Source: Chrysomallon squamiferum
Taxonomy: Eukaryota; Animalia; Mollusca
Direction: 5' to 3'
Assembly: GCA_012295275.1 (NCBI GenBank)
Contig: CM022679.1
Span: 4,898,001 to 4,962,000, forward strand
DNA length: 64,000 nucleotides
Shown here: positions 2,516-63,759 of the stretch, one piece after another
Position numbering within the stretch: position 1 is the stretch's first letter
Layout: each line of letters begins with the position of its first letter
Translations under genes and position numbers: made by a program
Notes under the pieces: model-generated
Databases searched by the model: none
Told to the model about the DNA's origin: nothing
The model's input: the letters and a program-made list of their open reading frames with translations, nothing else

Positions 2516-3118
2516 TTAGTCTGTTATTATATTCTACTTACTACATGTCGATATTGATTATGTTTATTATTTATATTATTTATATTATTATTATTATTAT
2601 TATAATTTTTATTTCTTTATTTATTTATTTATTTAATCATTTTTAGTTTTTTGTTTATTTATTTATTTTGTTTTGTTTATTATTTTTATTTATTTACTTA
2701 AATTTTTGCCTTCTTCAGTTTGGTCTTTTTATTCTGTTTCCCCTCCAGTGTTTTCTTGTTTTTTATTGTTATAACTTTCTTAGTACTAAATATTATTTAT
2801 TTTATTCTATTTATTTATTTGCTTCTGTAGTATAATTTTATATTATTATATTATTGTTATAAATATGTTAGTACTTATAATTATTTAATTTAACTTATTT
2901 CCTTATTTTATGTATCTTAATTTTTATTACTATCATAAATATATTATTTCTTTTTATAACTATTATTATTACTAATTGTTAATTATTTTATTTTATTTGC
3001 CTATAATTATTTTTCATCATCATAGCTGTATTATTTATTATTAAAAATTAGATTATTTATTAATCTTTATTTTTTTGTTATTTAACTATGATTACGAAAG
3101 CAATTGTATGAAGAGACA

Positions 3119-3151
3119 CTTTCTTAAGATTTGATGGCCCTGAAAAGGGCC
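3119..3151 (-). terminator. Histone-type 3' stem-loop + HDE (A1)
   Basis: Minus strand reads AAAAAC-GGCCCTTTTCAGGGCC-ATCAAATCTT-AAGAAAG; 6-bp stem, 4-nt loop; resembles sea urchin HDE CAAGAAAGA in sequence and spacing. Confidence 0.85.
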
Positions 3152-3535
3152 GTTTTTTGGGGGGAGATTGTTTTTATTTTCTTGTTTCATTTGGTCACTG
3201 GATTCCATCCTGTCATCGTTGAGGGCTGCAGAATGCTTGAGTCGTCTTCGCTTTTGATTGCAGAAGATCCTCCCTTCGGCCACGTTCTGGAAAGTTCGGG
3301 GTGTCCCGACCTCTAACCGTAGTAATGAACCTCGGAGCGGATCATCAACAATCAGTTTTGAAGACGATTTCCAACCAAACACAGCACCAAGATGCAGGAT
3401 GCAGGATCCAGTGAACAAAGAAACACTCCTTGAGATTAGCTGTTTAATCAGCGTCTTGTTTTTCCACATCCCGGATATAAATCAACGGGGTAGTGGATGT
3501 TCAATTGTTTTATAAAAAGAACCCTCAGGCTTACG
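3131..3535 (-). ncRNA. Unit A1: putative ~400-nt structured RNA with histone-type 3' end (5' end estimated from TATA)
   Basis: TATATAA at 3562-3556; stem-loop GGCCCT-TTTC-AGGGCC at 3151-3136; AAGAAAG 10 nt further on; long rod-like self-complementarity 3195-3414; no histone ORF. Confidence 0.6.
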
Positions 3536-3555
3536 TCATTCCATCTTTGTCGTCC

Positions 3556-3648
3556 TTATATAGACAGAAAACGGACGTAAAAGAAGTCACCTTGATGTTA
3601 GCAATGGCGTCGACAACAAGGAGTTGTGTTTTTTTCGTTGAAACTTTA
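3556..3648 (-). promoter_or_regulatory. Unit A1 promoter: TATA box, GGTGAC motif, shared upstream A/B box
   Basis: TATATAA 3556-3562; AGGTGACTTCT ~3582-3592; plus-strand GGAGTTGTGTTTTT..GAAACTTTA 3620-3648 also found upstream of B units. Confidence 0.6.
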
Positions 3649-5279
3649 ACGCGTTAAAATCTTCTGTAACATTATCATTCTCTAATATGTGTATAAAAGT
3701 ATTTTTGATGTGATTCCTTTTAAGAATACAATATAAAAATATTTCTATAATCATGATAATGTCGAAACTTTCTTGATATTATTCAAAGAAAGATAAAATA
3801 ATATCGAATTTATAGTGGTTTTCTTTGTTTTTATTCTGTTTAATATAAACAGTTTACTTCTGACAGTGTTTTCTAGTTATTTAGTTACGACTAAGTAATA
3901 AACAGTATAAAATGTGAATTGTTCAATGAGTATTTTGATTTAAAAATAATAATTAAATATTAAAGAAGAACGAGTAATATGATGTAAATTATTTGTTGGT
4001 AAACAGTCGTCATTATTTACTTTTTTTTTTTTTGTTGTATTATATTCAAAACCTGAAAGATTAGTTAATGTAATACACATATATATGTACATACAACTAT
4101 GCATACCTAAACAGAACTTCATACATACTCTGTGTATATTTCTCATTTTACAACAACAACAACAAACTAATTTTTTTAAATTGCTATCTTTATTGTTTAG
4201 ATTTCTTCCTGGTTAAAAACTACATACACTGCTTAGCATTAACAAACACCACGGTCTGTCAGATTATATTATAAATCCTCTTTTGAACCCAGTGAACCAT
4301 AACCAGTGATTTCAAAGTTCAAAATGCAAATATCCATACATACATGCATGCATGCATGCATACATAATACACACACATACATACATACATACATACATAC
4401 ATACTTAAAGTAATTCGTAAGAGATAGACAGGAGCTAATCAGAGTGTGTAAACTTTCTAAATGTTGCCAGCCAGTAACAGAATATAATTACTCCACCACT
4501 TGTGTGATTTGCATGAATAACAATATATTTATGTACACTGGATCATACTACAGTATCAGTAAAATATGATTTCTGCTTAAAAAGACTGTATACTCAACAA
4601 GGACTAATACAAAATATGTAATTATAAACAAATTCATTTATTTATTTTGAATAAATTTAATTAACAAACTAGCTGTTAACGAAAGCTAAGGAACCTAAAG
4701 TACCATCTAATGAGGAATTAAAAAAAATTAAAAAAAAAAAAAAAAAAAAAAAATAAAAATAGTCAAAGTTACAGTCCCACACCCACTAACAATTTCTGTC
4801 AACTACACTGATAAATGTAATTAATATATATATATTTTTTTTTTCTAAGTTGTTTTGTTTTATATCAAAATACTCCACAAACCAATAATTGAGGTAAACT
4901 GGATTTAATATTCTCTGTATTTCTTGCTCTGTAAACAATATATATATATATGTTTATATATATTGAATATTTATATGTATGTATGTATGCCACAATTAAT
5001 TATAGTTCCACTATTTTCCTTGCAGACTTCTATCTTTAAAAATAAACTTATTAAATATAAACAGAGATATTCCATGAATCATCTCTAGATATCTAATAAA
5101 ACAAAAGGAAAATTTAAATAAATAAATAAATAAAAAAATGCATTTTATATAATCATTTTATTATACAGATTTTTAATTTCCATTACAAATTAAGTTCGCA
5201 AAATTTTACATTGTTCATCACGATATTATATTTAATTTTCATGAATGCCGCACACTTTCAGAGACTTCCATACAGAATG

Positions 5280-5324
<45 letters not shown>

Positions 5325-5794
5325 GTAATATCAGATAATAGATAATTGATGAGCTTGGATTTTTAAAAATAAAAAAAAATAAAATAAAGTGACAGTATAA
5401 ATATACACAAAACTGTTTTCTAACAGTATATTTTTATTAAACGTATGCAAGTACTGTACATAGATGTTTGTTATTTTTCTACTGTTTTATTTTATTTTTA
5501 CACTCACTGTTTAGCAGTACTGATGATCCTTTTGATATTTATTGTGTTTAGCATACGGAAATGCTGGACAGACTTAAAAACAAAAAATGTCTCATGAATG
5601 TCATGGCTTTAGTTTTATATAATTTACCACGCTGACAATATTTTACCCATTTTCAGTTTATATTAGTTACCAGAGTGACAACAGTGTCAGCAGTTTCAAT
5701 TTACTTTAGTACCATATTGAGAATGTTGTACCTTTCACTTTTTATTGTAACATTTGAAATATTTCTCAAACTAACAGTTGTTGTTCCTAAATTA

Positions 5795-5846
<52 letters not shown>

Positions 5847-6664
5847 TATTTTGAAAATTACTAGTGTGAAAAACGAACATTTCCAAAACAGAAGTGAATT
5901 CTGCTTCAACTTAGCGCAATTAATACTAAAAATAGAAATTTTTAACCAAAACTAGAAGCAAGGAGAATAATTATGGAAAAGGAAGTATATTAGATTCGTC
6001 TCCCTTGGACTACAATTGGTGTGTCACGATAATAATAATAATTATAATAATATATTTTCATATTATATTTTCTTTTCTTGTATTAAATATTATTTACTGC
6101 ATGTTGATACTGAGGATGTATATTATTTTTTAACGGAAATAATTTAAACAACTACCAACATCATGGATAAAAATTTAAATTTAATTATTTTACATTATAA
6201 GAAAAAAAAAAACATGTTTTGGGGGTTTTATGAAAAAGATTCTTTTTATTAAAATCATTCATATTTACTTATCATATAACAGATATATAAAATAAAATAC
6301 ACACATTAAAGGGCGTTAGCAAATTTATGCTATTTATTTTCTTCGTTTATTTTTAATAATCATTTTGTGATTATGGTCTTGTTCAATTTTTTTCTTAGAA
6401 CGACTTATTATCAATTTTATTTTGTTAATTTTATAATTAATGCTGTATAAATTATTTATTATATATTTATTATAGTTAATATTGTTACTTATTTATATAT
6501 GTATAATAATTATGTTATTATTAGGTATTATTAGTACGAATTATCATTCATTTTATTTTATTTTATTTGTTTGTTTATGTAGCATAATTAATTTTATTAT
6601 CATAAACAGATTATTATTCTTTTTATTTTATTTTATTATTTAACAGCAATTGTATGAAAATACG

Positions 6665-6697
6665 CTTTCTTAAGGTTTGGTGGCCCTGAAAAGGGCC
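6665..6697 (-). terminator. Histone-type 3' stem-loop + HDE (B1)
   Basis: AACAAC-GGCCCTTTTCAGGGCC-ACCAAACCTT-AAGAAAG, with canonical ACCA after the stem. Confidence 0.9.
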
Positions 6698-7150
6698 GTT
6701 GTTGTTGTTACCCATCCTTTCGAGGGGTTTCTTAGACCGGGCTCTTCATCCGCTAGTGTTGGAATTTGATAGCACACATAGAATTACATTTTCGCAATTC
6801 TTTTGTGGGGTTCGTTAGGTTGGCCTCTTCATCCGTCAGTGTTGGAATTTGACAGATCACATAGAATTACATTTTCGCAATTCTTTTGTGGGTTTCTCAG
6901 TTTGGCCTCTTCGGCCGCCATTATTTGATTTTCAGGCATTCACAGAATTACATTTTCGCAATTCTTCGAGGGGCTTCTGAGATTGGCTCTTCAGCCGCCA
7001 GTATTGGACTTTGAGAGCACACACAGAATTACATTTTCGCAATTCTTCGAGGGCTTTCTCATTTTGAAGACTCCGCCAGTATCTGACTTTGAGAGCTCAC
7101 ATAGAACTTCATTTTAACAATTCCTCTGAAAGGCTGCTTCCCGGAGTATA
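6677..7150 (-). ncRNA. Unit B1: putative repeat-array RNA (4 full + 1 degenerate ~80-nt units) with histone-type 3' end
   Basis: TATATATAAA 7183-7174; hairpin AGAATTGCG-AAAA-TGTAATTCT at 6780, 6863, 6944, 7025; stem-loop 6697-6682; ATG-initiated frames I traced stop within ~25 codons. Confidence 0.6.
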
Positions 7151-7173
7151 TTGCCTTGCTGACCGTTCTCGTC

Positions 7174-7299
7174 TTTATATATACGCCGATGATGTCACCA
7201 TAGAAACACAGACACGTGACGTGATTAGAAAACAAACGGAAGCCGTTCTCGTGACCTCTCCATCCCTGATGGAGTTGTGTTTTTGTCTTCGAAACTTTA
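7174..7299 (-). promoter_or_regulatory. Unit B1 promoter
   Basis: TATA 7174-7183; GGTGACATC 7191-7199; CACGTGACGT ~7214; shared box GGAGTTGTGTTTTT..GAAACTTTA 7271-7299. Confidence 0.6.
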
Positions 7300-8331
7300 C
7301 AGTTTTAGAATGTGGTACCGTAATAATACTATATGTCAGATATATGTGTATATTTGTTATATGTTTCTGTTTTCAGTATTTATATTTTTATCCGCATGAT
7401 GTCAATATTTCCTTGACGCCAATTAAAAAAACACCAGGTTGAAACAAAATTTATAACTGACTGCATATTTAATATAGATTTTAAAATCAATGGGTTTTTT
7501 TTTAGCAATGTTTTATGATGCCGTATATATCATTAAAGAATCCAGAATATGAAATGTACATACCTTTTGTGCATATATTGATACTGTCAATAGGAAAACA
7601 AATAAACAAAGCACACACTAGCACAACCACTTGACAGTTGCATTAAGCTAATGAATTTGTGACGTAATCATTCAAAACCTTACTCAGTCTGTATCATTTA
7701 CTACAAAATTTAGTTTACCATGTGATGAAAAAAATAAGAAACTAGATCCAAAAGTAACTTTTTAATACTTTTGTTTTAAATAATTTATTATTATTGTTGT
7801 TGTTACTATTATTATTTAAACTGGTTATTTCTAATTCATCAAGATATCAACAGACAAGTTTTTTAAGTGAAGTGTTTTTTTATTTGAAGTGTGCAGACTA
7901 ATTGGAAGAATATTTTCTTTGACATAAGTAATTATTAACTGATAAATGATGATAATATTACAATTACTTCTCAATACATTAAAAACTATTTGTATTCTTA
8001 TGTTTTATATGAATTTTTAAATTTGTTTCTTTTTTTAATTTGGTCTTGTTCAATTTTTTTTCTTAGAACGACTTATTATCAATTTTATTTTGTTAATTTT
8101 ATAATTAATGTTGTATAATTATTTATTATATATTTATTATAGTTAATATTGTTACTTATTTATATATGTATGATAATTATGTTATTATTAGGTATTATTA
8201 GTACGAATTATCATTCATTTTATTTTATTTTATTTGTTTGTTTATGTAGCATAATTAATTTTATTATCACAAACAGATTATTATTCTTTTTATTTTATTT
8301 TATTATTTAACAGCAATTGTATGAAAATACG

Positions 8332-8364
8332 CTTTCTTAAGGTTTGGTGGCCCTGAAAAGGGCC
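8332..8364 (-). terminator. Histone-type 3' stem-loop + HDE (B2)
   Basis: Identical to the B1 signal. Confidence 0.9.
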
Positions 8365-8885
8365 GTTGTTGTTGTTACCCATCCTTTCGACGGGTTTCTT
8401 AGACCGGGCTCTTCATCCGCCAGTGTTGGAATTTGATAGCACACACAGAATTACATTTTCGCAATTCTTTTGTGGGGTTCGTTAGGTTGGCCTCTTCATC
8501 CGCCTGTATTGGAATTTGACAGCTCACATAGAACATTTTCGCAATTCTTTCGAGGGGTTTCTGAGATTGGCCTCTTCAGCCGCCAGTGTTGGACTTTGAG
8601 AGCCCAAACAGAATTACATTTTCGCAATTCTTTCCTCTGGTTCCTTAGGTTGGCCCTTCAGCCGCCAGTATTGGACTTTGAGAGCACACACAGAATTACA
8701 TTTTCGCAATTCTTTGAGGGGCTTCTCAGTTTGTCCTCTTCATCCGCCAGTGTTGGAATTTCAGAGCACACACAGAATTACATTTTCGCAATTCTTTGAG
8801 GGGCTTCTCAGTTTGTCCTCTTCATCCGCCAGTATCTGACTTTGAGAGGACACAGAGAACTTCATTTTAACTATTCTTCTGAAAG
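8344..8885 (-). ncRNA. Unit B2: repeat-array RNA (5 + 1 degenerate units) with histone-type 3' end
   Basis: TATA 8914-8905; hairpins at 8447, 8530 (3-nt deletion), 8610, 8692, 8774; stem-loop 8364-8349. Confidence 0.55.
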
Positions 8886-9689
8886 GCTGCTTCCCGTTCT
8901 TGTCTTTATATATACGCCGATGATGTCACCATAGAAACACAGACACGTGACGTGATTAGTAAACAAACGGCAAACGTTCTCGTGACGTCGCCATCCCTGA
9001 TGGAGTTGTGTTTTTGTCTTTGAAACTTTACCGTTTTAGAATGTGGTACCGTAATAATACTTTATGTCAGATATATGTGTATATTTGTTATATGTTTCTG
9101 TTTTCGGTATTTATATTTTTATCCGCATAATGTCAATATTTTCCTTGACGCCAATTAAAAAACACCAGGTTGAAACAAAATTTATAACTGACTGCATATT
9201 TAATATGGATTTTAAAATCAATGTTTTTTTTTTTTTTAGCAATGTTTTATGATGCCGTATATATCATTAAATATCTGGAATATGAAATGTACATACCTTT
9301 TTGTGCATATATTCATACTGTAAATAGAAAAACAAATAAACAAAGCACACACTAGCACAACCACTTGACGGTTGCATTAAGCTAATGAATTTGTGACGTA
9401 ATCATTCAAAACAGTGATACGCTTTCTTAACCTTACTCAATCTGTATCATTTACTACAAAATTTAGTTTTACATGTGATGAAAAAAATAGGAAACAAATA
9501 GATCCAGAAGTAAAGTTTTACTACTTTTGTTATAAATAATTAATTAGTTATAATTATTATTATTATTATTACTTTATAACAATACTAATAACAACAATCA
9601 TCATCATCATTATTATCATTATTAATGATGCTAATACTAATGTTGTTACTACATTACGGCTATTACAACTGAAATAAGATGAACAGAAA

Positions 9690-9725
9690 CGCTCATTCTG
9701 AAGACATGTCGCCCTAAAAAGGGCG
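9690..9725 (-). terminator. Variant histone-type stem-loop + purine-rich element (C1)
   Basis: AAAA-CGCCCTTTTTAGGGCG-ACATGTCTTC-AGAATGAGCG; the base pair at the stem base is C-G instead of G-C. Confidence 0.7.
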
Positions 9726-9925
9726 TTTTCGTCTCCTTCCTGACACCTGACATCTTTAGAACTTGCGACAGGACGTTCTATTTGGTCTGTCTGGGTTTCC
9801 TCTTTATAGCGGTTTTCTTGCCAACACTCGCCTGCACTAGCTCCCTAGTAGGTATCAAGCTCGACAGATAACAGTCTGATGAACTTCCAGGACTGACGAT
9901 TCGGCTTTCGTTGTCACAATAATTT
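9705..9925 (-). ncRNA. Unit C1: putative ~215-nt structured RNA with variant histone-type 3' end
   Basis: TATAAA 9952-9947; CGCCCT-TTTT-AGGGCG 9725-9710 followed by ACA; no ATG until ~25 nt before the stem-loop. Confidence 0.5.
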
Positions 9926-10405
9926 AAAATGCCAAAAGTCGTGCACTTTATACCCTCGTACCGGACCTGAAAGAAGTGACACCTTTATTTACATTTTCAA
10001 CATTGTTGTTTTGTACGTGCTACGGATACATTTTTATCTCTAATTTTGTTTTTATATTATATTTTTATATTCTAAAACGATTTATATTCTTGTTTTATAT
10101 GAATTTTTAAATTTGTTTCTTTCTTCAATTTTATCTTGTTGAATGTTTTCTTAGAACTAATTTTTTTTTTATAATTAATGTTGTATAATTATTTACTCTA
10201 TATTTATTATAATTATTATTATTACTTATTTATATATGTATTATAATTTATTACCATGATAATTATGTTTATTATTAGCTACTATTAGTACTAATTATTT
10301 TTTATTTATTTTATTTATTTCTTTACGTATGTGGTATAATTATTTTTATTATCATAACCATATTATTTATTTATTATTATTAAACAGCAATTGTATGGAA
10401 ACACG

Positions 10406-10438
10406 CTTTCTTAAGATTTGGTGGCCCTGAAAAGGGCC
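10406..10438 (-). terminator. Histone-type 3' stem-loop + HDE (A2)
   Basis: GGCCCTTTTCAGGGCC-ACCAAATCTT-AAGAAAG. Confidence 0.9.
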
Positions 10439-10832
10439 GGGGTTTTGGGGTGGGGATATTTTTATTTTATTTATTTTTTGTTTCATTTGGTCACTGGATT
10501 CCATCCTGTCATCGTTGAGGGCTGCAGAATGCTTGAGTCGTCTTCGCTTTTGATTGCAGAAGATCCTCCCTTCGGCCACGTTCTGGAAAGTTCGGGGTGT
10601 CCCGACCTCTAACCGTAGTAATGAACCTCGGAGCGGATCATCAACAATCAGTTTTGAAGACGATTTCCAACCAAACACAGCACCAAGATGCAGGATGCAG
10701 GATCCAGTGAACAAAGAAACACTCCTTGAGATTAGCTGTTTAATCAGCGTCTTGTTTTTCCACATCCCGGATATAAATCAACGGGGTAGTGGATGTTCAA
10801 TTGTTTTATAAAAAGAACCCTCAGGCTTACGT
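10418..10832 (-). ncRNA. Unit A2: second copy of the type A RNA
   Basis: 10481-10837 reads identical to 3185-3541; TATATAA 10859-10853; stem-loop 10438-10423. Confidence 0.6.
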
Positions 10833-11678
10833 CATTCTCTGTTTTGTCGTTCTTATATAGACAGAAAGCGGACGTAAAAGAAGTCACCTTCACGTTAGCA
10901 ATGGCGTCGACAACAAGGAGTTGTGTTTTTTTCTTTGAAACGTTTTCGCGTTAAAATCTTCTGTAACATTATCATTCTCTCATATGTGTATAAAAGTATT
11001 TTTGATGTGATTCCTTTTAAGAATACAATATAAATATATTTCTATAATCATGATAATGCCGAAACTTTCTTGATATTGTTCAAAGAAAGGTAAAATAATA
11101 CAGAATTTACAGGGGTTTTCTTTGTTTTTATTCTGTTTAATACAAACAGTTTACTTCTGACAGTGTTTTTAAGTTACTTAATTACAACTAAGTAATAAAG
11201 AATATAAAATGTGCAAAATTCAAAGCATGTATTCTTTTAAAAATATCAATTTATAATTAAAGTAAAACAAAAAGAAGAACAAAAGTAGCAGGTGTGTTTG
11301 TTAAAAATGTTCACGGTTTCGTAATCCTTGTAAATGCAGAGAATATAGCGTCTGACGTAATATCTATTTCGGGGGGGATTGCAGGGGATTAGGGGATGCG
11401 TTCCTTGAATAACCTCAGCCCATTACTAATAAATTATTATTATTATTATTATTTCTTATTATTTCTTATTATTGATTTATTTATTGTTGTTGTATTTATT
11501 TATTTCCTTGTTTATATACCTGTTTATTGTTTTATTTATATATGTAAAATTGTTTATTTATTTATTAAGAAATAATTAATTTATAGTAAAATAATTAAGC
11601 AAATAGTAATATATGAATGATGCTAATACTAATGTTACTACATTACCGCTATTACAACTGAAATAAGATGAACAGAAA

Positions 11679-11714
11679 CACTCATTCTGAAGACATGTCG
11701 CCCTAAAAAGGGCG
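11679..11714 (-). terminator. Variant histone-type stem-loop + purine-rich element (C2)
   Basis: CGCCCTTTTTAGGGCG-ACATGTCTTC-AGAATGAGTG. Confidence 0.7.
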
Positions 11715-11914
11715 TTTTCGTCTCCTTCCTGACATCTGACATCTTTAGAACTTGCGACAGGACGTTCTATTTGGTCTGTCTGGGTTTCCTCTTTATAGCG
11801 GTTTTCTTGCCAACACTCGTCTGCACTAGCTCCCTAGCAGGTATCAAGCTCGACAGATAACAGTCTGATGAACTTCCAGGACTGACAATTCGGCTTTCGT
11901 TGTCACAATAATTT
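11694..11914 (-). ncRNA. Unit C2: second copy of the type C RNA
   Basis: Near-identical to C1 (about five substitutions between TATA and stem-loop); TATAAA 11941-11936; stem-loop 11714-11699. Confidence 0.5.
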
Positions 11915-12316
11915 AATATGCCAAAAGTCGTGCACTTTATACCCTCGTACCGGACCTGAAAGAAGTGACACCTTTATTTACATTTTCAACATTGTTGTTT
12001 TGTACGTGCTACGGAGACATTTTTATCTCTAATTTTTTTTTCTGTCTTTTAATAACTTTTATTTTTTTACATATTTTCATTTTGTCAGATAATAAGTTTT
12101 GACAGTGTAATTCAGGACAATAGGGAACAAACTGTATTGGCTGTTGATAGAAATATATAAAAAATATCTCAGAGACGTTGTTACATAAATCAAGTCCATA
12201 GCTACCAGACGGAACTGAAATAAACCATTTACTGAGGATAGGTCATAGATGACTCATCAAAAAATAAATAATAATAATAATAAAAAATAAATAAATAAAT
12301 AAAAAATAAATAAATA

Positions 12317-13605: not shown

Positions 13606-16058
13606 CATATGCGGAAATTTAGATTGATGATTACAAAATAAATATTTAAATAAATAAATAAATATAATAATAATAATAATAACATTAATAATAATAAATA
13701 TAATATAATAATAATAATTATATAGAAAATTAAAATAAATAAAAATAAATTAACAAATAAATGAACAAATAATTGTAAACAGCAACAACGACGACAACAA
13801 CAACAACAAAACTACAACAATAATAATAATAACAACGACAACAGTAGCAACACAAACACTACAGATATTAAACTAATACTTAGGTAATTATTTTCTTAAC
13901 AATCAAGGTAGCTGATTAAAGGAAGAATTATCAAAGCTGTCATATTCCTGTCATTAAATAATTTTTTTTATTTTTTTATTTATTTTTTTTTTTTTTTACT
14001 ATAGACGTCATATTTAATCGATAACAGTTAATGTTCTAGATGGGTTTTTTTTGTTGTTTTTTCTTTCTTTCTTTCTTTCTTTTATCATTACTTATATTTC
14101 CCTCTTTGTCCAAATTGCACCACATAACAATATTCTTATATTTCCTTTCCGTATGTCGTCATGCTTGTCTCTTTGTCTGTCTGTCTGGTTGCTTTTATGT
14201 ATGTATGCTTATGTCTCCGTATACAAGTATACCCATTATTATTTATAAGTGAATGCATGAATAAATTAAGTAAATAAGTAAAGAAGAAAGAAAGAAAGAA
14301 AAGAAAGAAAAGGAGATTCGAAATAGACTAACAAAACACAAAAGTAAACAGTTAAAGAATGGATGAATGAATGGATGGATGAAATGATGAATAAACGAAT
14401 GAATGAATGGATGAATGAACGAATGAACGAACGAATGAATGAACGGATGAATGAACGAATGAATGAACGAAAGAAATGATTAATATATGAATGAATGAAC
14501 GAATGGATGAATGAATGAACATGCGAATGAACGAATGAATGAAAGAAAGAATGGATTAATGAATAAATGAATGAATGGATGAATGAATGAAAAATGAACG
14601 GATGAATTAAAAAAAGAAAGAATGAATAAATGAACGTCGTAGTCAAGATACGATACAGGAATTGTGAAAAAAAAAAAAATTAATAAAATCGAAAAGCTGA
14701 ACACAAAAAGTAACGAATTTGAGCATTACAACATACGACTTTTAATTAATTAAAAGACAGAGTAAAAGCAAATATTTGACATTCTGTTAGTAGTTATCAA
14801 TAACTGATAAACGTTTATTGAAAATCTAAAAAAAAAAAAAAAAAAATCAATATCTACCGATAGCCTCAGGCCGTTACGGTTTCTTTGGCTTATAAAAATT
14901 TTGGTTAGTCCAGTTGTAGATCTCTTCATTTCTCTATAAATCAAACTGTCTATTTTATTTTATTTTATTTATTTATTTATTTAATTATTTATTTATTTTA
15001 TTATTATTTTTTGAATCAGATGGACGGAATGGGAACTTAGATCGAGTCGCCTGATCTTACATGATGTCAGCGCCTGTTAAAACACAAATAGTTGCAGCAG
15101 ACTCACCTTCAGTGACAGAACAAAACTCGAACATTCTAGAAGTACTGAAATGACCCTTCCTTATCGACAGAACGCAGACTATTTAACTACAAATTTGATG
15201 AGAGCAAAACGATGTCTGCTCGTCGTAACAATCGCGAAAATGCAGCGTCATCGAAATAGACAAAGGAGATTTTGAGAGAGAAGGGGAAATAGCTGTCTCT
15301 AACTTTACTGTTAGGAAAGATTGGTTCGCGATAACACTTAAAATATTTGCGTAGAATACACACACGCAAACAAACACTCACATATATGAATGCATTAGAT
15401 TATAATAGTTCATACTTTATTATTAACAAAGATGCTAAAAAAATAAACACATATACACACGTACACGTGAATATGTAGATGTATATTTGTACATATATGT
15501 ATGTATGTATGTATGTATATGTGTATGTGATGTGTGTGCGTGTATGTATGTGTGTGCATGTATGCATGTGTATTAATGTTTGTTATATATCAGTGTATGT
15601 ACAGCCATTATTTATTGTTAGGAAAATAGTGTGCAGTTTAAAACTAAAATACTCACCTGAAATATACAATTTACAATAACACTGACCTGTCAGAGAACAC
15701 AACAAATGTCAAAGATTTGTCGCAAAATCGACTGTATTTTTGTTACTGGCTTGTTATAAAGCAAACACATAAATAACACATCGGGTTTTGAAACACATAA
15801 ATGTTACATGTAACTTAATAAGCGAGTTAAACATCTGTTTTTATTTACTATTTTTTAACGTAATTATATTTACTATTTTTTAACGTAATTATATTACGTT
15901 GTATATTTTCAAGTAATTCTTGTTGGTTGTGATCTTATTATTATTAGTAGTAGCAGTATTAGTATATTAGAATTAGTATTTATGAAATGGTTTGATACAA
16001 GTATCTTTAGACATATTATTTATTTTTGGACTGTGCATTTTTTTTTTTTTTTTATCAG

Positions 16059-16216
16059 ATGACCAATCACGACTTCACAAATCACCGCTGACGAGACTCG
16101 AACGTATGACACCCATTCACCGCACTCCAGAGGCGGACAACGTTACCATTCGGCCATCAAGACAACCTTGTATGTACGTGTGTATGTATGTATGTATGTA
16201 TGTATGCATGTATGTA

Positions 16217-16247
<31 letters not shown>

Positions 16248-16746
16248 ATGTATGTATGTATGTATTAATGTGTGTATGTATGTATGTATGTAGGTATGTA
16301 TTAATGTTTGTTTGTATGTATATATGTATGTATGTATGTATGTATATGATGTATGTATGCATGTATGTATGTATGTATGTATGTATATGTATGTATGAAT
16401 GTATGTATGTATTTATGTATGTATGAATGTATGTATGTATGTATGTATGAATGTATGTATGCATGCATGTCTGTATGTATGTATGTATATGTATGTATGT
16501 ATGTATGTATATATATATATATGTATGTATGAATGTATGTATGTATGAATGTATGTATGTATGTATGTATGTGTGTATGTATGTAAGTATAATCTCATTG
16601 AAACGTGAAATGTTTTGATGATTTCATCTAAGCGCACTATAATCACTTTTATTTTATTTTATTTTTCTCTTTCTGTTTCCAGGTAGAAGATTACTGTGTA
16701 TTGTGCTGTGTATTGACTCGATGTGGTCCAGTGAGGATGGACACTG
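16059..16746 (+). other. Two candidate spliced exons (16059-16169; 16683 onward) of an unidentified transcript
   Basis: Polypyrimidine+CAG acceptors, GTATGT donor, 111-nt phase 1-1 exon; joined frame DQSRLHKSPLTRLERMTPIHRTPEADNVTIRPSRQPCRRLLCIVLCIDSMWSSEDGH*; no recognisable homology. Confidence 0.3.
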
Positions 16747-17439
16747 ACTGCTTTTTGTTGTTTGTTGTTTGCGAAGCAGAAACTAGGCTGCGTCTCTTGT
16801 CAACGAACGCGTTTTACAGAAACTGAAAGACTGACGCATTTTGACACACAGAGATCCATAAACACACACACAGTGCACACACACATTTACGTCATGTCTG
16901 TATTCAAATAGACATGTACATGCATTCATACATACATACATACATACATACATACATACATACATACATACATACATACATACATACATACGTTCATATA
17001 CGTAAATAAGCGTTGGGGGTACAAAGATAAAAGAGTTTTAGATTTCCAAGAAATTCTAATCTATTTTACAAGAATATTTCGTTAATTTCTAAGTAGTTGG
17101 TTTGTTTACTTTTGTCTGTATTTTGTTGGGTTTGTTTGTTTGTTTTTGTTATTGTTGTTGCTTTTTGTTGTTGCTTGTTGTTTGTTATTTATGGGGTTTT
17201 TTTGTTGTCTTATATATATATATATATATATTGGGGATTAATAAAGGGAAAATAAAAAATAGAACGAAAAACCAGCAACACGATAGAAGAAAAATTGAAA
17301 AAGATGAAAGAACAACAACAACAACAATAACAACAACAACAACAACAACAACAACAATAATAATAATAATAATGATAATAATGATGATGATGATAATAGT
17401 AATAATAATAATAATGATGATGATGATGATAATAATAAT

Positions 17440-18006
17440 AAATGAAAGAAAAACAAGTACAGAAATTGTTGTGTGGTGGCGTTGGCTTGTATTATAAAAC
17501 TTTGATTTCTTTATTTTATTTTCTGTGTGATGCGACTCACACCTGACTCAGTCTCCCGTAGCTACACTATTGGTCTAAGGTAAAAAATCAATTCAAGTGT
17601 AACAGTCACCTGACAATGTAGATGTGAATTAATTAATGCGTTTACGAGTAGTCTATTATTTTAGCGTGTTGAGCAGCGTTCGGAAGGAAAATAATGTTAG
17701 CAGTGTTGTGTCTCATTCCTACCCTTGTCTCTTTTTGTGAAGGTAGGTCATCTGTTTTATATGTAAAGTTTCAAGATTTTTAATTTTTAAAAAATATATA
17801 TATATATTTTTTTTTTTAGTTTAAGATATTGAAATTTTCAGTTTCTTGTATTGTCATTATACACTGATATCATCAACAACGAAATTTTGATTCTTGTAGC
17901 TTGTATTTTAAAGTTTTGTCATTTTTTTTTTTTTTTCTCTCGTTAAGATATTTTATAATTTCTTTTTATGGTTTTGTTCTTCTTCTTCCTCTTTTTCATA
18001 TTATTA

Positions 18007-44977: not shown

Positions 44978-50970
<5,993 letters not shown>

Positions 50971-55235: not shown

Positions 55236-63759
<8,524 letters not shown>

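What the first reader, a model, noticed from the sequence alone, without database searches (positions are those of the whole stretch)
3119..12035. Cluster of six non-histone genes carrying histone-mRNA 3'-end signals (stem-loop + HDE)
Seen: six minus-strand units (A1, B1, B2, C1, A2, C2). Each has a TATA box, a 200-550 nt body that is GC-richer than the flanks, a 6-bp-stem/4-nt-loop hairpin (GGCCCT-TTTC-AGGGCC at 3136, 6682, 8349, 10423; CGCCCT-TTTT-AGGGCG at 9710, 11699) and a purine element exactly 10 nt downstream (AAGAAAG in A and B). No body encodes a histone or an Arg/Lys-rich protamine-like protein. Established: in animals this bipartite signal is bound by SLBP and U7 snRNP and is regarded as specific to replication-dependent histone mRNAs. 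Inference: a family of Pol II, non-polyadenylated, SLBP/U7-processed structured RNAs laid out like a tandem histone cluster, possibly S-phase, oocyte or germline regulated. I know of no described equivalent.
Basis: partly seen in the sequence, partly recalled or inferred. Interest (0 to 1): 0.95.

Follow-up and report, generated by a model that had tools for sequence, protein, structure and literature searches.

The report
Non-coding RNAs with histone mRNA ends
Six small genes in a snail genome end in the RNA hairpin and downstream signal thought to be reserved for histone messages but encode no histone, so they likely make tail-less non-coding RNAs, two kinds of them predicted to fold into hairpins, through the histone message pathway.

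Summary
Observation confirmed. Six histone-type hairpins lie at the stated places, the only six in 64 kb, each behind a TATA box and a GC-rich body. Four (A, B) have a clear downstream element; C is weaker. No histone or transposase remnant was found. The host is a gastropod near Gigantopelta.

New here: the A body folds into a 243-nt rod (z -7.4). It is 360/360 identical between copies while the promoter flank differs by 9%. B is five or six 80-83-nt hairpin repeats. Sequencing contigs show further family members, including ~100-nt TATA-to-hairpin minigenes. RNA-library contigs from one study cover B (2 of 2 runs) and A (1 of 2), without strand or ends.

Best reading (0.6): non-coding RNA genes built on a shared promoter and histone 3' cassette, likely cut by SLBP/U7. 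Processing and function are unshown. Rivals: mobile-element debris, or a read-through protein from A. The scan has already noted non-histone genes with such ends in other genomes (unchecked notes, mostly coding or transposon-borne). I found no such class in print.

The parts
3131..3532 (-). A1 predicted transcript (TATA 3555-3562; start inferred about 30 nt downstream; end inferred 5 nt after the stem)
   Evidence: 360/360 identical to A2 over the main body
3183..3425 (-). A1 long imperfect hairpin (same sequence as in A2)
   Evidence: identity with A2; fold of A2
3119..3151 (-). A1 histone-type stem-loop (3136-3151) and downstream element (3119-3125)
   Evidence: Histone3 33.6 bits
6677..7153 (-). 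B1 predicted transcript (TATA 7176-7183); five 81-83-nt repeats, the first degenerate, each with an 8-bp hairpin
   Evidence: RNA contigs at 6811-7027
6665..6697 (-). B1 stem-loop (6682-6697) and downstream element (6665-6671)
   Evidence: Histone3 37.5 bits
8344..8884 (-). B2 predicted transcript (TATA 8907-8914); six 80-83-nt repeats, the first degenerate
   Evidence: RNA contigs at 8447-8792
8332..8364 (-). B2 stem-loop (8349-8364) and downstream element (8332-8338)
   Evidence: Histone3 37.5 bits
9705..9922 (-). C1 predicted transcript (TATA 9945-9952); no folding signal beyond the terminal hairpin
9692..9725 (-). C1 variant stem-loop (9710-9725, C-G bottom pair) and purine tract (9692-9699)
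   Evidence: not listed by Rfam at E<=5
10418..10829 (-). A2 predicted transcript (TATA 10852-10859); 5' segment 10754-10829 shared with short paralogues, 315-nt extra segment 10439-10753
   Evidence: RNA contig 10543-10783
10479..10721 (-). A2 long imperfect hairpin, 243 nt, 89 predicted pairs
   Evidence: (z -7.4, 0 of 100 shuffles)
10406..10438 (-). A2 stem-loop (10423-10438) and downstream element (10406-10412)
   Evidence: Histone3 32.8 bits
10367..10765 (-). A2 open frame of 132 codons (A1: 3092-3469, 125 codons) that runs through the stem-loop; no stop inside the predicted transcript; no homologue
11694..11911 (-). C2 predicted transcript (TATA 11934-11941)
   Evidence: 193 of 197 identical to C1
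11681..11714 (-). C2 variant stem-loop (11699-11714) and purine tract (11681-11688)
   Evidence: Histone3 21.3 bits, E 0.039

Best explanation
The six units carry a TATA box, a non-histone body and a histone-type stem-loop with a downstream purine element, and are likely non-coding RNA genes whose transcripts would be bound by SLBP and cut by U7/CPSF73 just after the hairpin to give tail-less RNAs. Shown by sequence: a shared cassette (related promoters, and for A and B one 3' end with about 300 nt of shared downstream flank) surrounds three unrelated bodies, and local duplication spread it. Shown by contigs: more members exist, down to about 100 nt between TATA box and hairpin. Inferred from known biochemistry (0.7): Pol II makes the RNA, SLBP binds the hairpin, U7 pairs with the purine element and cleavage falls about 5 nt after the stem, so abundance would follow SLBP (S phase or oocytes). 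Inferred (0.55): the product acts as RNA, at least for A, whose sequence is held invariant. Most likely role (0.25, a guess from anatomy): protein-binding RNAs, with A a long double-stranded ligand, B a multivalent hairpin array, and the minigenes bare stem-loop carriers that would compete for SLBP.
For: Hairpins, spacing and TATA boxes as in the observation check. The terminal hairpin is predicted to form inside all six full transcripts (pair probabilities 0.65-1.0). A and B promoters align above 200 of 200 shuffles, A and C above 195 of 200; the three bodies do not align with each other. A1 vs A2: body 360/360, upstream 348/383, Fisher p 4e-11; the same stretch has 0 differences in a 284-nt DNA contig of X1, a 184-nt one of X5 and a 241-nt RNA contig of X7. 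A folds at z -7.4; B1 folds on the predicted strand only (z -3.8 vs 0.0). No ATG frame longer than 10 codons stops inside the A or C transcripts, and B1 and B2 share no long frame. Three X1 contigs and one X7 contig follow the A 5' segment and then run straight into a histone-type hairpin. RNA-library contigs cover B at depth 37-158 in both RNA runs and A at depth 61 in X7. Cleavage is directed by stem-loop and HDE (PMC7026596, passages).
Against: RNA data are contigs from two runs of one study: no strand, start or end. RNA-library contigs also cover promoter DNA (7270-7385 depth 6; 9001-9235 depth 14; 8906-9029 in a depth-35 contig of a B paralogue; 10911-10957 depth 6-12), and the short-A contig starts near the TATA box and runs 190 nt past the aligned part, hairpin included, so DNA carry-over or read-through is present. 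A is absent from X9's listed body pieces and C has no listed RNA piece. No covariation in the B hairpin (0 of 7 pairs; 148 of 500 shuffles as high). A's arms show no G-U bias (3 vs 4) and also fold on the other strand (z -5.8). B and C bodies are not better conserved than their flanks. C has no folding signal (z -1.4). A's invariance could be gene conversion among many copies. A keeps a long open frame (see rival). AATAAA hexamers lie both before (A) and 44-64 nt after (A, B) the stem. No mollusc U7 was available to test pairing.
Confidence: 0.6

Rival explanations
1. The units are gene-less derivatives or cargo of a mobile element whose autonomous partner ends its genes in histone-type hairpins. 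They are transcribed because they inherited the promoter and have no host function.
For: A looks multi-copy: its contig has depth 767 against 57 for a B1-specific piece in X1, and 417 against 60 in X5 (depth is only a rough guide). Related flanks around unrelated bodies, and central tandem repeats as in B, are described for oyster Helentron HINEs (PMC7492417, passages). The extra segment of A1 is flanked by a 6-nt direct repeat. Unchecked scan notes report transposase genes and a gene-less repeat with such hairpins.
Against: No terminal inverted repeats above control at any of 6 units or the cluster (30-232 of 300 controls as high). No subterminal repeat shared by both copies of a type and no HINE-type microsatellite. 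Homology runs about 300 nt past the hairpin in A and B. No Helitron-type end on the transcribed strand. No transposase family among 143 stop-free stretches from window 1-21000. Divergence in A is not uniform.
Confidence: 0.17
2. A is an orphan protein gene: read-through to a downstream poly(A) site gives a 125-132-aa protein, and cleavage at the hairpin would remove the stop codon and act as an off switch. B, C and the minigenes are decayed or rearranged members of small protein families with histone-type ends.
For: The frame starts at the first ATG after the inferred start and stays open for 113+ codons; 26 of 5000 shuffles do as well. The length difference between A1 and A2 (306 vs 315 nt) and the short paralogue keep the frame through the hairpin (about 1 in 9 by chance). 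AATAAA follows at +47 and +64. Two X1 contigs leave the A 5' segment at an ATG (only 30 nt seen). L008 shows a 74-aa non-histone ORF 57 nt before the same end in another organism.
Against: No relative in 5.8 billion proteins of 68-219 aa, in 1.84 billion representatives, in viral contigs or Pfam. Zero silent changes in 360 nt where the flank differs by 9% points to a constraint on the nucleotides. The C-termini of A1 and A2 differ. No similarity to the L008 family (best E 0.10).
Confidence: 0.15
3. They are old histone pseudogenes (orphons) whose coding parts decayed or were replaced and which no longer matter.
For: The 3' ends match genuine invertebrate histone ends. Codons for the first five residues of H3 lie about 70 nt upstream of the C TATA box (0.03 expected per shuffled window, but chosen after looking).
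Against: tblastn and nhmmer with H2A, H2B, H3 and H4 from fetched loci find nothing (best E 0.28 and 0.76); the control detects 117 of 120 copies at 40% divergence and 29 of 120 at 50%, and is optimistic because the mutated genes were in the models. No linker-histone family in Pfam scans; no H1 sequence was on hand. Signals are intact and A is invariant.
Confidence: 0.05
4. A is a small-RNA precursor (hairpin-RNA or giant-microRNA type) that uses the histone end to time its production. This is a specific version of the best explanation.
For: A 243-nt imperfect rod is in the size range of Drosophila hpRNAs and long microRNA hairpins (PMC12553114, passages).
Against: A survey of 32 molluscs found no endo-siRNA pathway (PMC12479628, passages), and molluscs appear to lack highly extended microRNA hairpins. 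No Rfam microRNA family matches the bodies at E<=5. It would not explain B, C or the minigenes.
Confidence: 0.1

Closest known systems
Metazoan replication-dependent histone genes (Rfam RF00032 stem-loop, HDE, SLBP, U7 snRNP, CPSF73)
   Same: TATA box, short compact unit, 6-bp/4-nt hairpin with A/C-rich flanks, purine element 10 nt downstream, clustered multi-copy layout.
   Different: No histone coding sequence; bodies appear non-coding, are structured (A, B) and unrelated to each other. SLBP CLIP in HeLa found only histone mRNAs (PMC4604434, passages).
Histone pseudogenes and orphons
   Same: Histone-type 3' end without a working histone ORF.
   Different: No detectable histone homology; signals intact; A invariant and found in an RNA library.
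Helentron non-autonomous elements (HINEs) of oyster (PMC7492417)
   Same: Shared flanks around unrelated bodies, central tandem repeats (B), a 3' palindrome, many copies.
   Different: No subterminal repeats or microsatellite; homology continues about 300 nt past the hairpin; hairpin and downstream element follow the histone consensus; TATA promoter.
Drosophila hairpin RNAs and giant microRNA hairpins (PMC12553114)
   Same: Long imperfect fold-back of similar size (A only).
   Different: Histone-type end; small-RNA output untested; molluscs reportedly lack the siRNA pathway (PMC12479628).
Non-histone coding genes with histone-type ends (L008 here; unchecked scan notes on other genomes)
   Same: TATA box, non-histone body, stem-loop plus AAGAAAG.
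   Different: Those have an ORF that stops shortly before the hairpin; these have none, and no sequence similarity to L008.

Membership tests
Replication-dependent histone genes | Encodes a histone | tested here: not met
   H1 tested only through Pfam
Replication-dependent histone genes | Conserved 16-nt stem-loop at the 3' end | tested here: met
   2 of 6 above the Rfam gathering score, 2 just under, C2 weak, C1 not listed
Replication-dependent histone genes | Purine-rich HDE at a fixed distance after the stem | tested here: met
   4 of 4 A/B units at 10 nt; C has a divergent tract
Replication-dependent histone genes | HDE pairs with the species' U7 snRNA | not testable with these tools
   no genome held; no mollusc U7 mentioned in PMC5054213 (0 occurrences)
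Replication-dependent histone genes | Mature RNA ends about 5 nt after the stem without poly(A); SLBP-bound; S-phase expression | not testable with these tools
   only contigs were available
Replication-dependent histone genes | Intronless Pol II unit with TATA box | tested here: inconclusive
   TATA in 6 of 6; one unspliced 241-nt RNA contig in A; start sites inferred
Histone pseudogenes / orphons | Body homologous to a histone coding sequence | tested here: not met
   with sensitivity control
Helentron HINE | 11-12-bp subterminal inverted repeats | tested here: not met
   none in 4 of 6 units, only AT-rich matches not shared between copies in A2 and B2
Helentron HINE | Microsatellite in the left flank; palindrome within about 60 bp of the right end | tested here: not met
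   features from PMC7492417 passages
Helentron HINE | Central tandem repeats | tested here: met
   B only
TIR DNA transposon / MITE | Terminal inverted repeats, target-site duplication, transposase | tested here: not met
   edges taken from pairwise homology in this window only
hpRNA / giant microRNA precursor | Long imperfect hairpin | tested here: met
   A only
hpRNA / giant microRNA precursor | Dicer-type small RNAs from the arms | not testable with these tools
   no small-RNA run was offered

The most novel reading that the evidence does not exclude
Snails run a whole class of non-coding Pol II genes through the histone 3'-end pathway: a multi-copy family on one promoter-plus-stem-loop cassette, from ~100-nt bare stem-loop RNAs to a strictly conserved 240-nt RNA rod and hairpin arrays. 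They would be the first non-coding SLBP/U7 substrates, with levels tied to DNA replication or oogenesis and able to buffer SLBP.
Probability: 0.4. Interest if true: 0.92.

Novelty: new variant of a known kind. Interest (0 to 1): 0.75.

Why it matters
The stem-loop/HDE/SLBP/U7 system is described as serving histone mRNAs only (PMC4604434 abstract and passages; PMC5054213 passages), on evidence from a few model animals. If these units are processed as predicted, the pathway is a general route to tail-less, cell-cycle-timed RNAs, and such RNAs would be missed by poly(A) sequencing and by gene annotation. The prediction is cheap to test: six exact 3' ends are given.

Tried and rejected
No whole genome is held, so the genome-wide Histone3 scan, the U7 search and the snail's own histone genes could not be examined. 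No relative of the units was found in metagenome contigs, prokaryote genomes (one search gave 11 bacterial 20-mer matches, taken as chance and not followed), viral contigs, phages or earlier scan windows (nothing). The 17 viral-contig hairpin matches held no labelled histone ORF and were not used. RNA boundaries: X7's A contig stops at 10783 and 10543 where DNA contigs go on, bins with DNA depth above 1600 (10791-10847, 10867-10904) have RNA depth 0-4, and B depth falls off near the predicted starts. This fits a bounded transcript and argues against pure DNA carry-over, but uncovered parts of contigs from one study are not evidence of ends, so I do not count it. An intron in A (a donor-like site at the start, an acceptor-like site in the loop, read by eye) was rejected because an RNA contig runs unspliced through it. 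The idea that each B repeat is a decayed copy of the 3' end failed (247 of 500 shuffles as good). B hairpin covariation was absent. A 7-mer in the B repeats reminded me of the miR-8/miR-200 seed (recalled, no call); Rfam gives no such hit and it is not in a precursor-like hairpin. No tRNA or other Rfam family in the bodies. The bacterial promoter scan is not relevant. The atlas search only supported the CDR2 label.
Full report
Observation. The six hairpins are at the stated coordinates, all on the minus strand, and are the only ones in the window (0 of 100 shuffles had any). Rfam Histone3 gives 37.5 bits for B1 and B2, 33.6 and 32.8 for A1 and A2 (gathering score 34), 21.3 for C2, and does not list C1. 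AAGAAAG begins 10 nt after the stem in the four A/B units; in histone-linked metagenome loci the spacer is 11-12 nt. Each unit has a TATA box about 250-570 nt upstream of its end, and bodies are 44-47% GC against 14-28% in flanks. The terminal hairpin is predicted to form within each full transcript.

Host and setting. A CDR2-like ORF at 45-46 kb is 78% identical to the Gigantopelta aegis protein, then 56% to Haliotis, so the host is a gastropod close to Gigantopelta. A CLC channel exon lies at 60 kb. No histone gene is detectable in the window.

What the bodies are not. Core histones taken from metagenome loci (19 distinct coding sequences: H2A 4, H2B 2, H3 7, H4 6) find nothing in the units by tblastn (best E 0.28) or nhmmer (best E 0.76). 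The control recovers 120 of 120 copies at 30% divergence, 117 of 120 at 40% and 29 of 120 at 50%. Of 143 stop-free stretches (92 overlapping five of the units, 51 from elsewhere in 1-21000, including C2's longer frames), none reached a Pfam cut-off and none hit a histone or transposase family. No other Rfam family matches the bodies.

Anatomy. The three bodies do not align with one another, but A and B promoters do (above 200 of 200 shuffles), A and C weakly (5 of 200 as high), B and C not (70 of 200); A and B also share the 3' end and about 300 nt beyond it. So one cassette holds different bodies. A folds into a 243-nt rod with 89 pairs (z -7.4); its arms are an old inverted repeat (71 complementary positions, 23 mismatches, 15 gap columns) without G-U bias. 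A1 and A2 are identical over 360 nt from the inferred start to about 35-45 nt before the stem, while the upstream flank differs at 35 of 383 positions (p 4e-11). B is an array of 80-83-nt repeats with a conserved 8-bp hairpin, folding better on the predicted strand, with no covariation among 11 repeats; tandem repetition itself inflates its z-score. C shows no structure. B and C bodies are no better conserved than their flanks.

Coding potential. C has no ATG frame over 10 codons that stops before the end; B1 and B2 have different short frames. A has a frame from its first ATG that stays open through the hairpin (125 and 132 codons; 26 of 5000 shuffles match it), with indels that keep the frame. 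It has no homologue. If the RNA is cut at the hairpin this frame has no stop codon. I keep it as a rival at 0.15.

Sequencing runs. Eleven runs were listed, nine holding part of the stretch, from three studies; two are RNA, both from study P2, all kept as contigs. I laid X1, X5, X7, X9 and X1, X7, X9; the best DNA holders may be the window's own source. In DNA, the A body is one difference-free contig at depth 767 (X1) and 417 (X5), about 13 and 7 times a B1-specific piece, a rough sign of many identical copies. Three X1 contigs and one X7 contig follow the A 5' segment to about 10750 and then enter a histone-type hairpin with different flanks, which implies genes of about 100 nt; five X1 contigs keep the A promoter but continue into about 150 nt unlike A; a B paralogue with a shorter array is in X1, X5 and X7. 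In RNA libraries, contigs cover B at depth 37-158 in both runs and A at depth 61 in X7 only; C has no listed piece. Lower-depth contigs also cover promoter DNA, so some DNA carry-over or read-through is present. Strand and ends are not shown. Tables were cut by the tool (982 pieces and 360 loose ends not shown).

Elsewhere. A metagenome scan for the hairpin plus AAGAAAG gave 15 distinct loci: 10 with a core histone ORF directly upstream, 1 with no upstream sequence, and 4 without a labelled histone ORF. Of these, L008 has a TATA box and a 74-aa ORF ending 57 nt before the hairpin with three close relatives and no Pfam domain; L010 has three tandem hairpins with the same flank; L011 and L013 were not resolved. 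The scan's earlier notes report similar ends on non-histone coding genes, transposase genes and one gene-less repeat in other genomes; I did not check them.

Mobile-element test. No terminal inverted repeats above control, no shared subterminal repeats, no HINE microsatellite, no Helitron end on the transcribed strand. This covers only the copies in this window.

Mechanism. That SLBP binds the stem-loop, U7 pairs with the HDE and CPSF73 cuts between them is from PMC7026596 (passages). That cleavage falls about 5 nt after the stem, and that the second stem pair and loop uridines matter most for SLBP, is recalled and comes from no call; C keeps those positions. Applying this to the six units is inference. 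The proposed roles are guesses from anatomy.

Literature. Ten searches of open PubMed Central and bioRxiv listed no paper describing non-coding or non-histone genes with this end. I read passages found by term in PMC4604434 (SLBP CLIP in HeLa recovered histone mRNAs; one non-histone stem-loop match, not expressed), PMC13525598, PMC5054213, PMC5011920, PMC12553114, PMC12479628, PMC7026596 and PMC7492417; all other papers were seen only as listings. No supplements were read, and older subscription papers on mollusc histone genes are outside the library, so absence from print is not established.

Verdict. The signal is real and the bodies are not histones. The best reading is a family of non-coding genes using the histone 3'-end route (0.6). 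The key step, processing, is untested. Interest 0.75.

Noticed in passing
window 44978-47903, minus strand: CDR2-like gene; large exon 78% identical to Gigantopelta aegis.
   Followed up: partly
window 55587-60662, minus strand: Exons of a CLC chloride channel gene (PF00654, E 2e-11 for 60342-60662).
   Followed up: no
window 10006-10020 and 11995-12009, minus strand: Fifteen bases upstream of the C TATA box read as the first five residues of histone H3; 0.03 expected per shuffled window but chosen after looking.
   Followed up: partly
L008 227-542 and L010 1516-1699: Two contigs of one metagenome data set: a 74-aa non-histone ORF ending in a histone stem-loop plus AAGAAAG, and three tandem copies of the same 3' end.
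   Followed up: partly
L011 29-62 and L013 308-341: Histone stem-loop plus AAGAAAG with no labelled histone ORF in 900 nt upstream; L011 has a tandem duplication before the hairpin.
   Followed up: partly
L020 267-284 and L026 2000-2017: Two viral-collection contigs share an identical hairpin resembling a histone stem-loop with no long ORF upstream.
   Followed up: partly
window 15050-17560, minus strand: Several short stretches bounded by splice-like sites, read by eye; possibly non-coding or UTR exons of a gene upstream of the cluster.
   Followed up: no
window 10783 and 10871 (loose ends in run X1): Other genes with the A-type promoter continue into unlike bodies of 137-151 nt or more; two begin with an ATG at the point of departure.
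   Followed up: no
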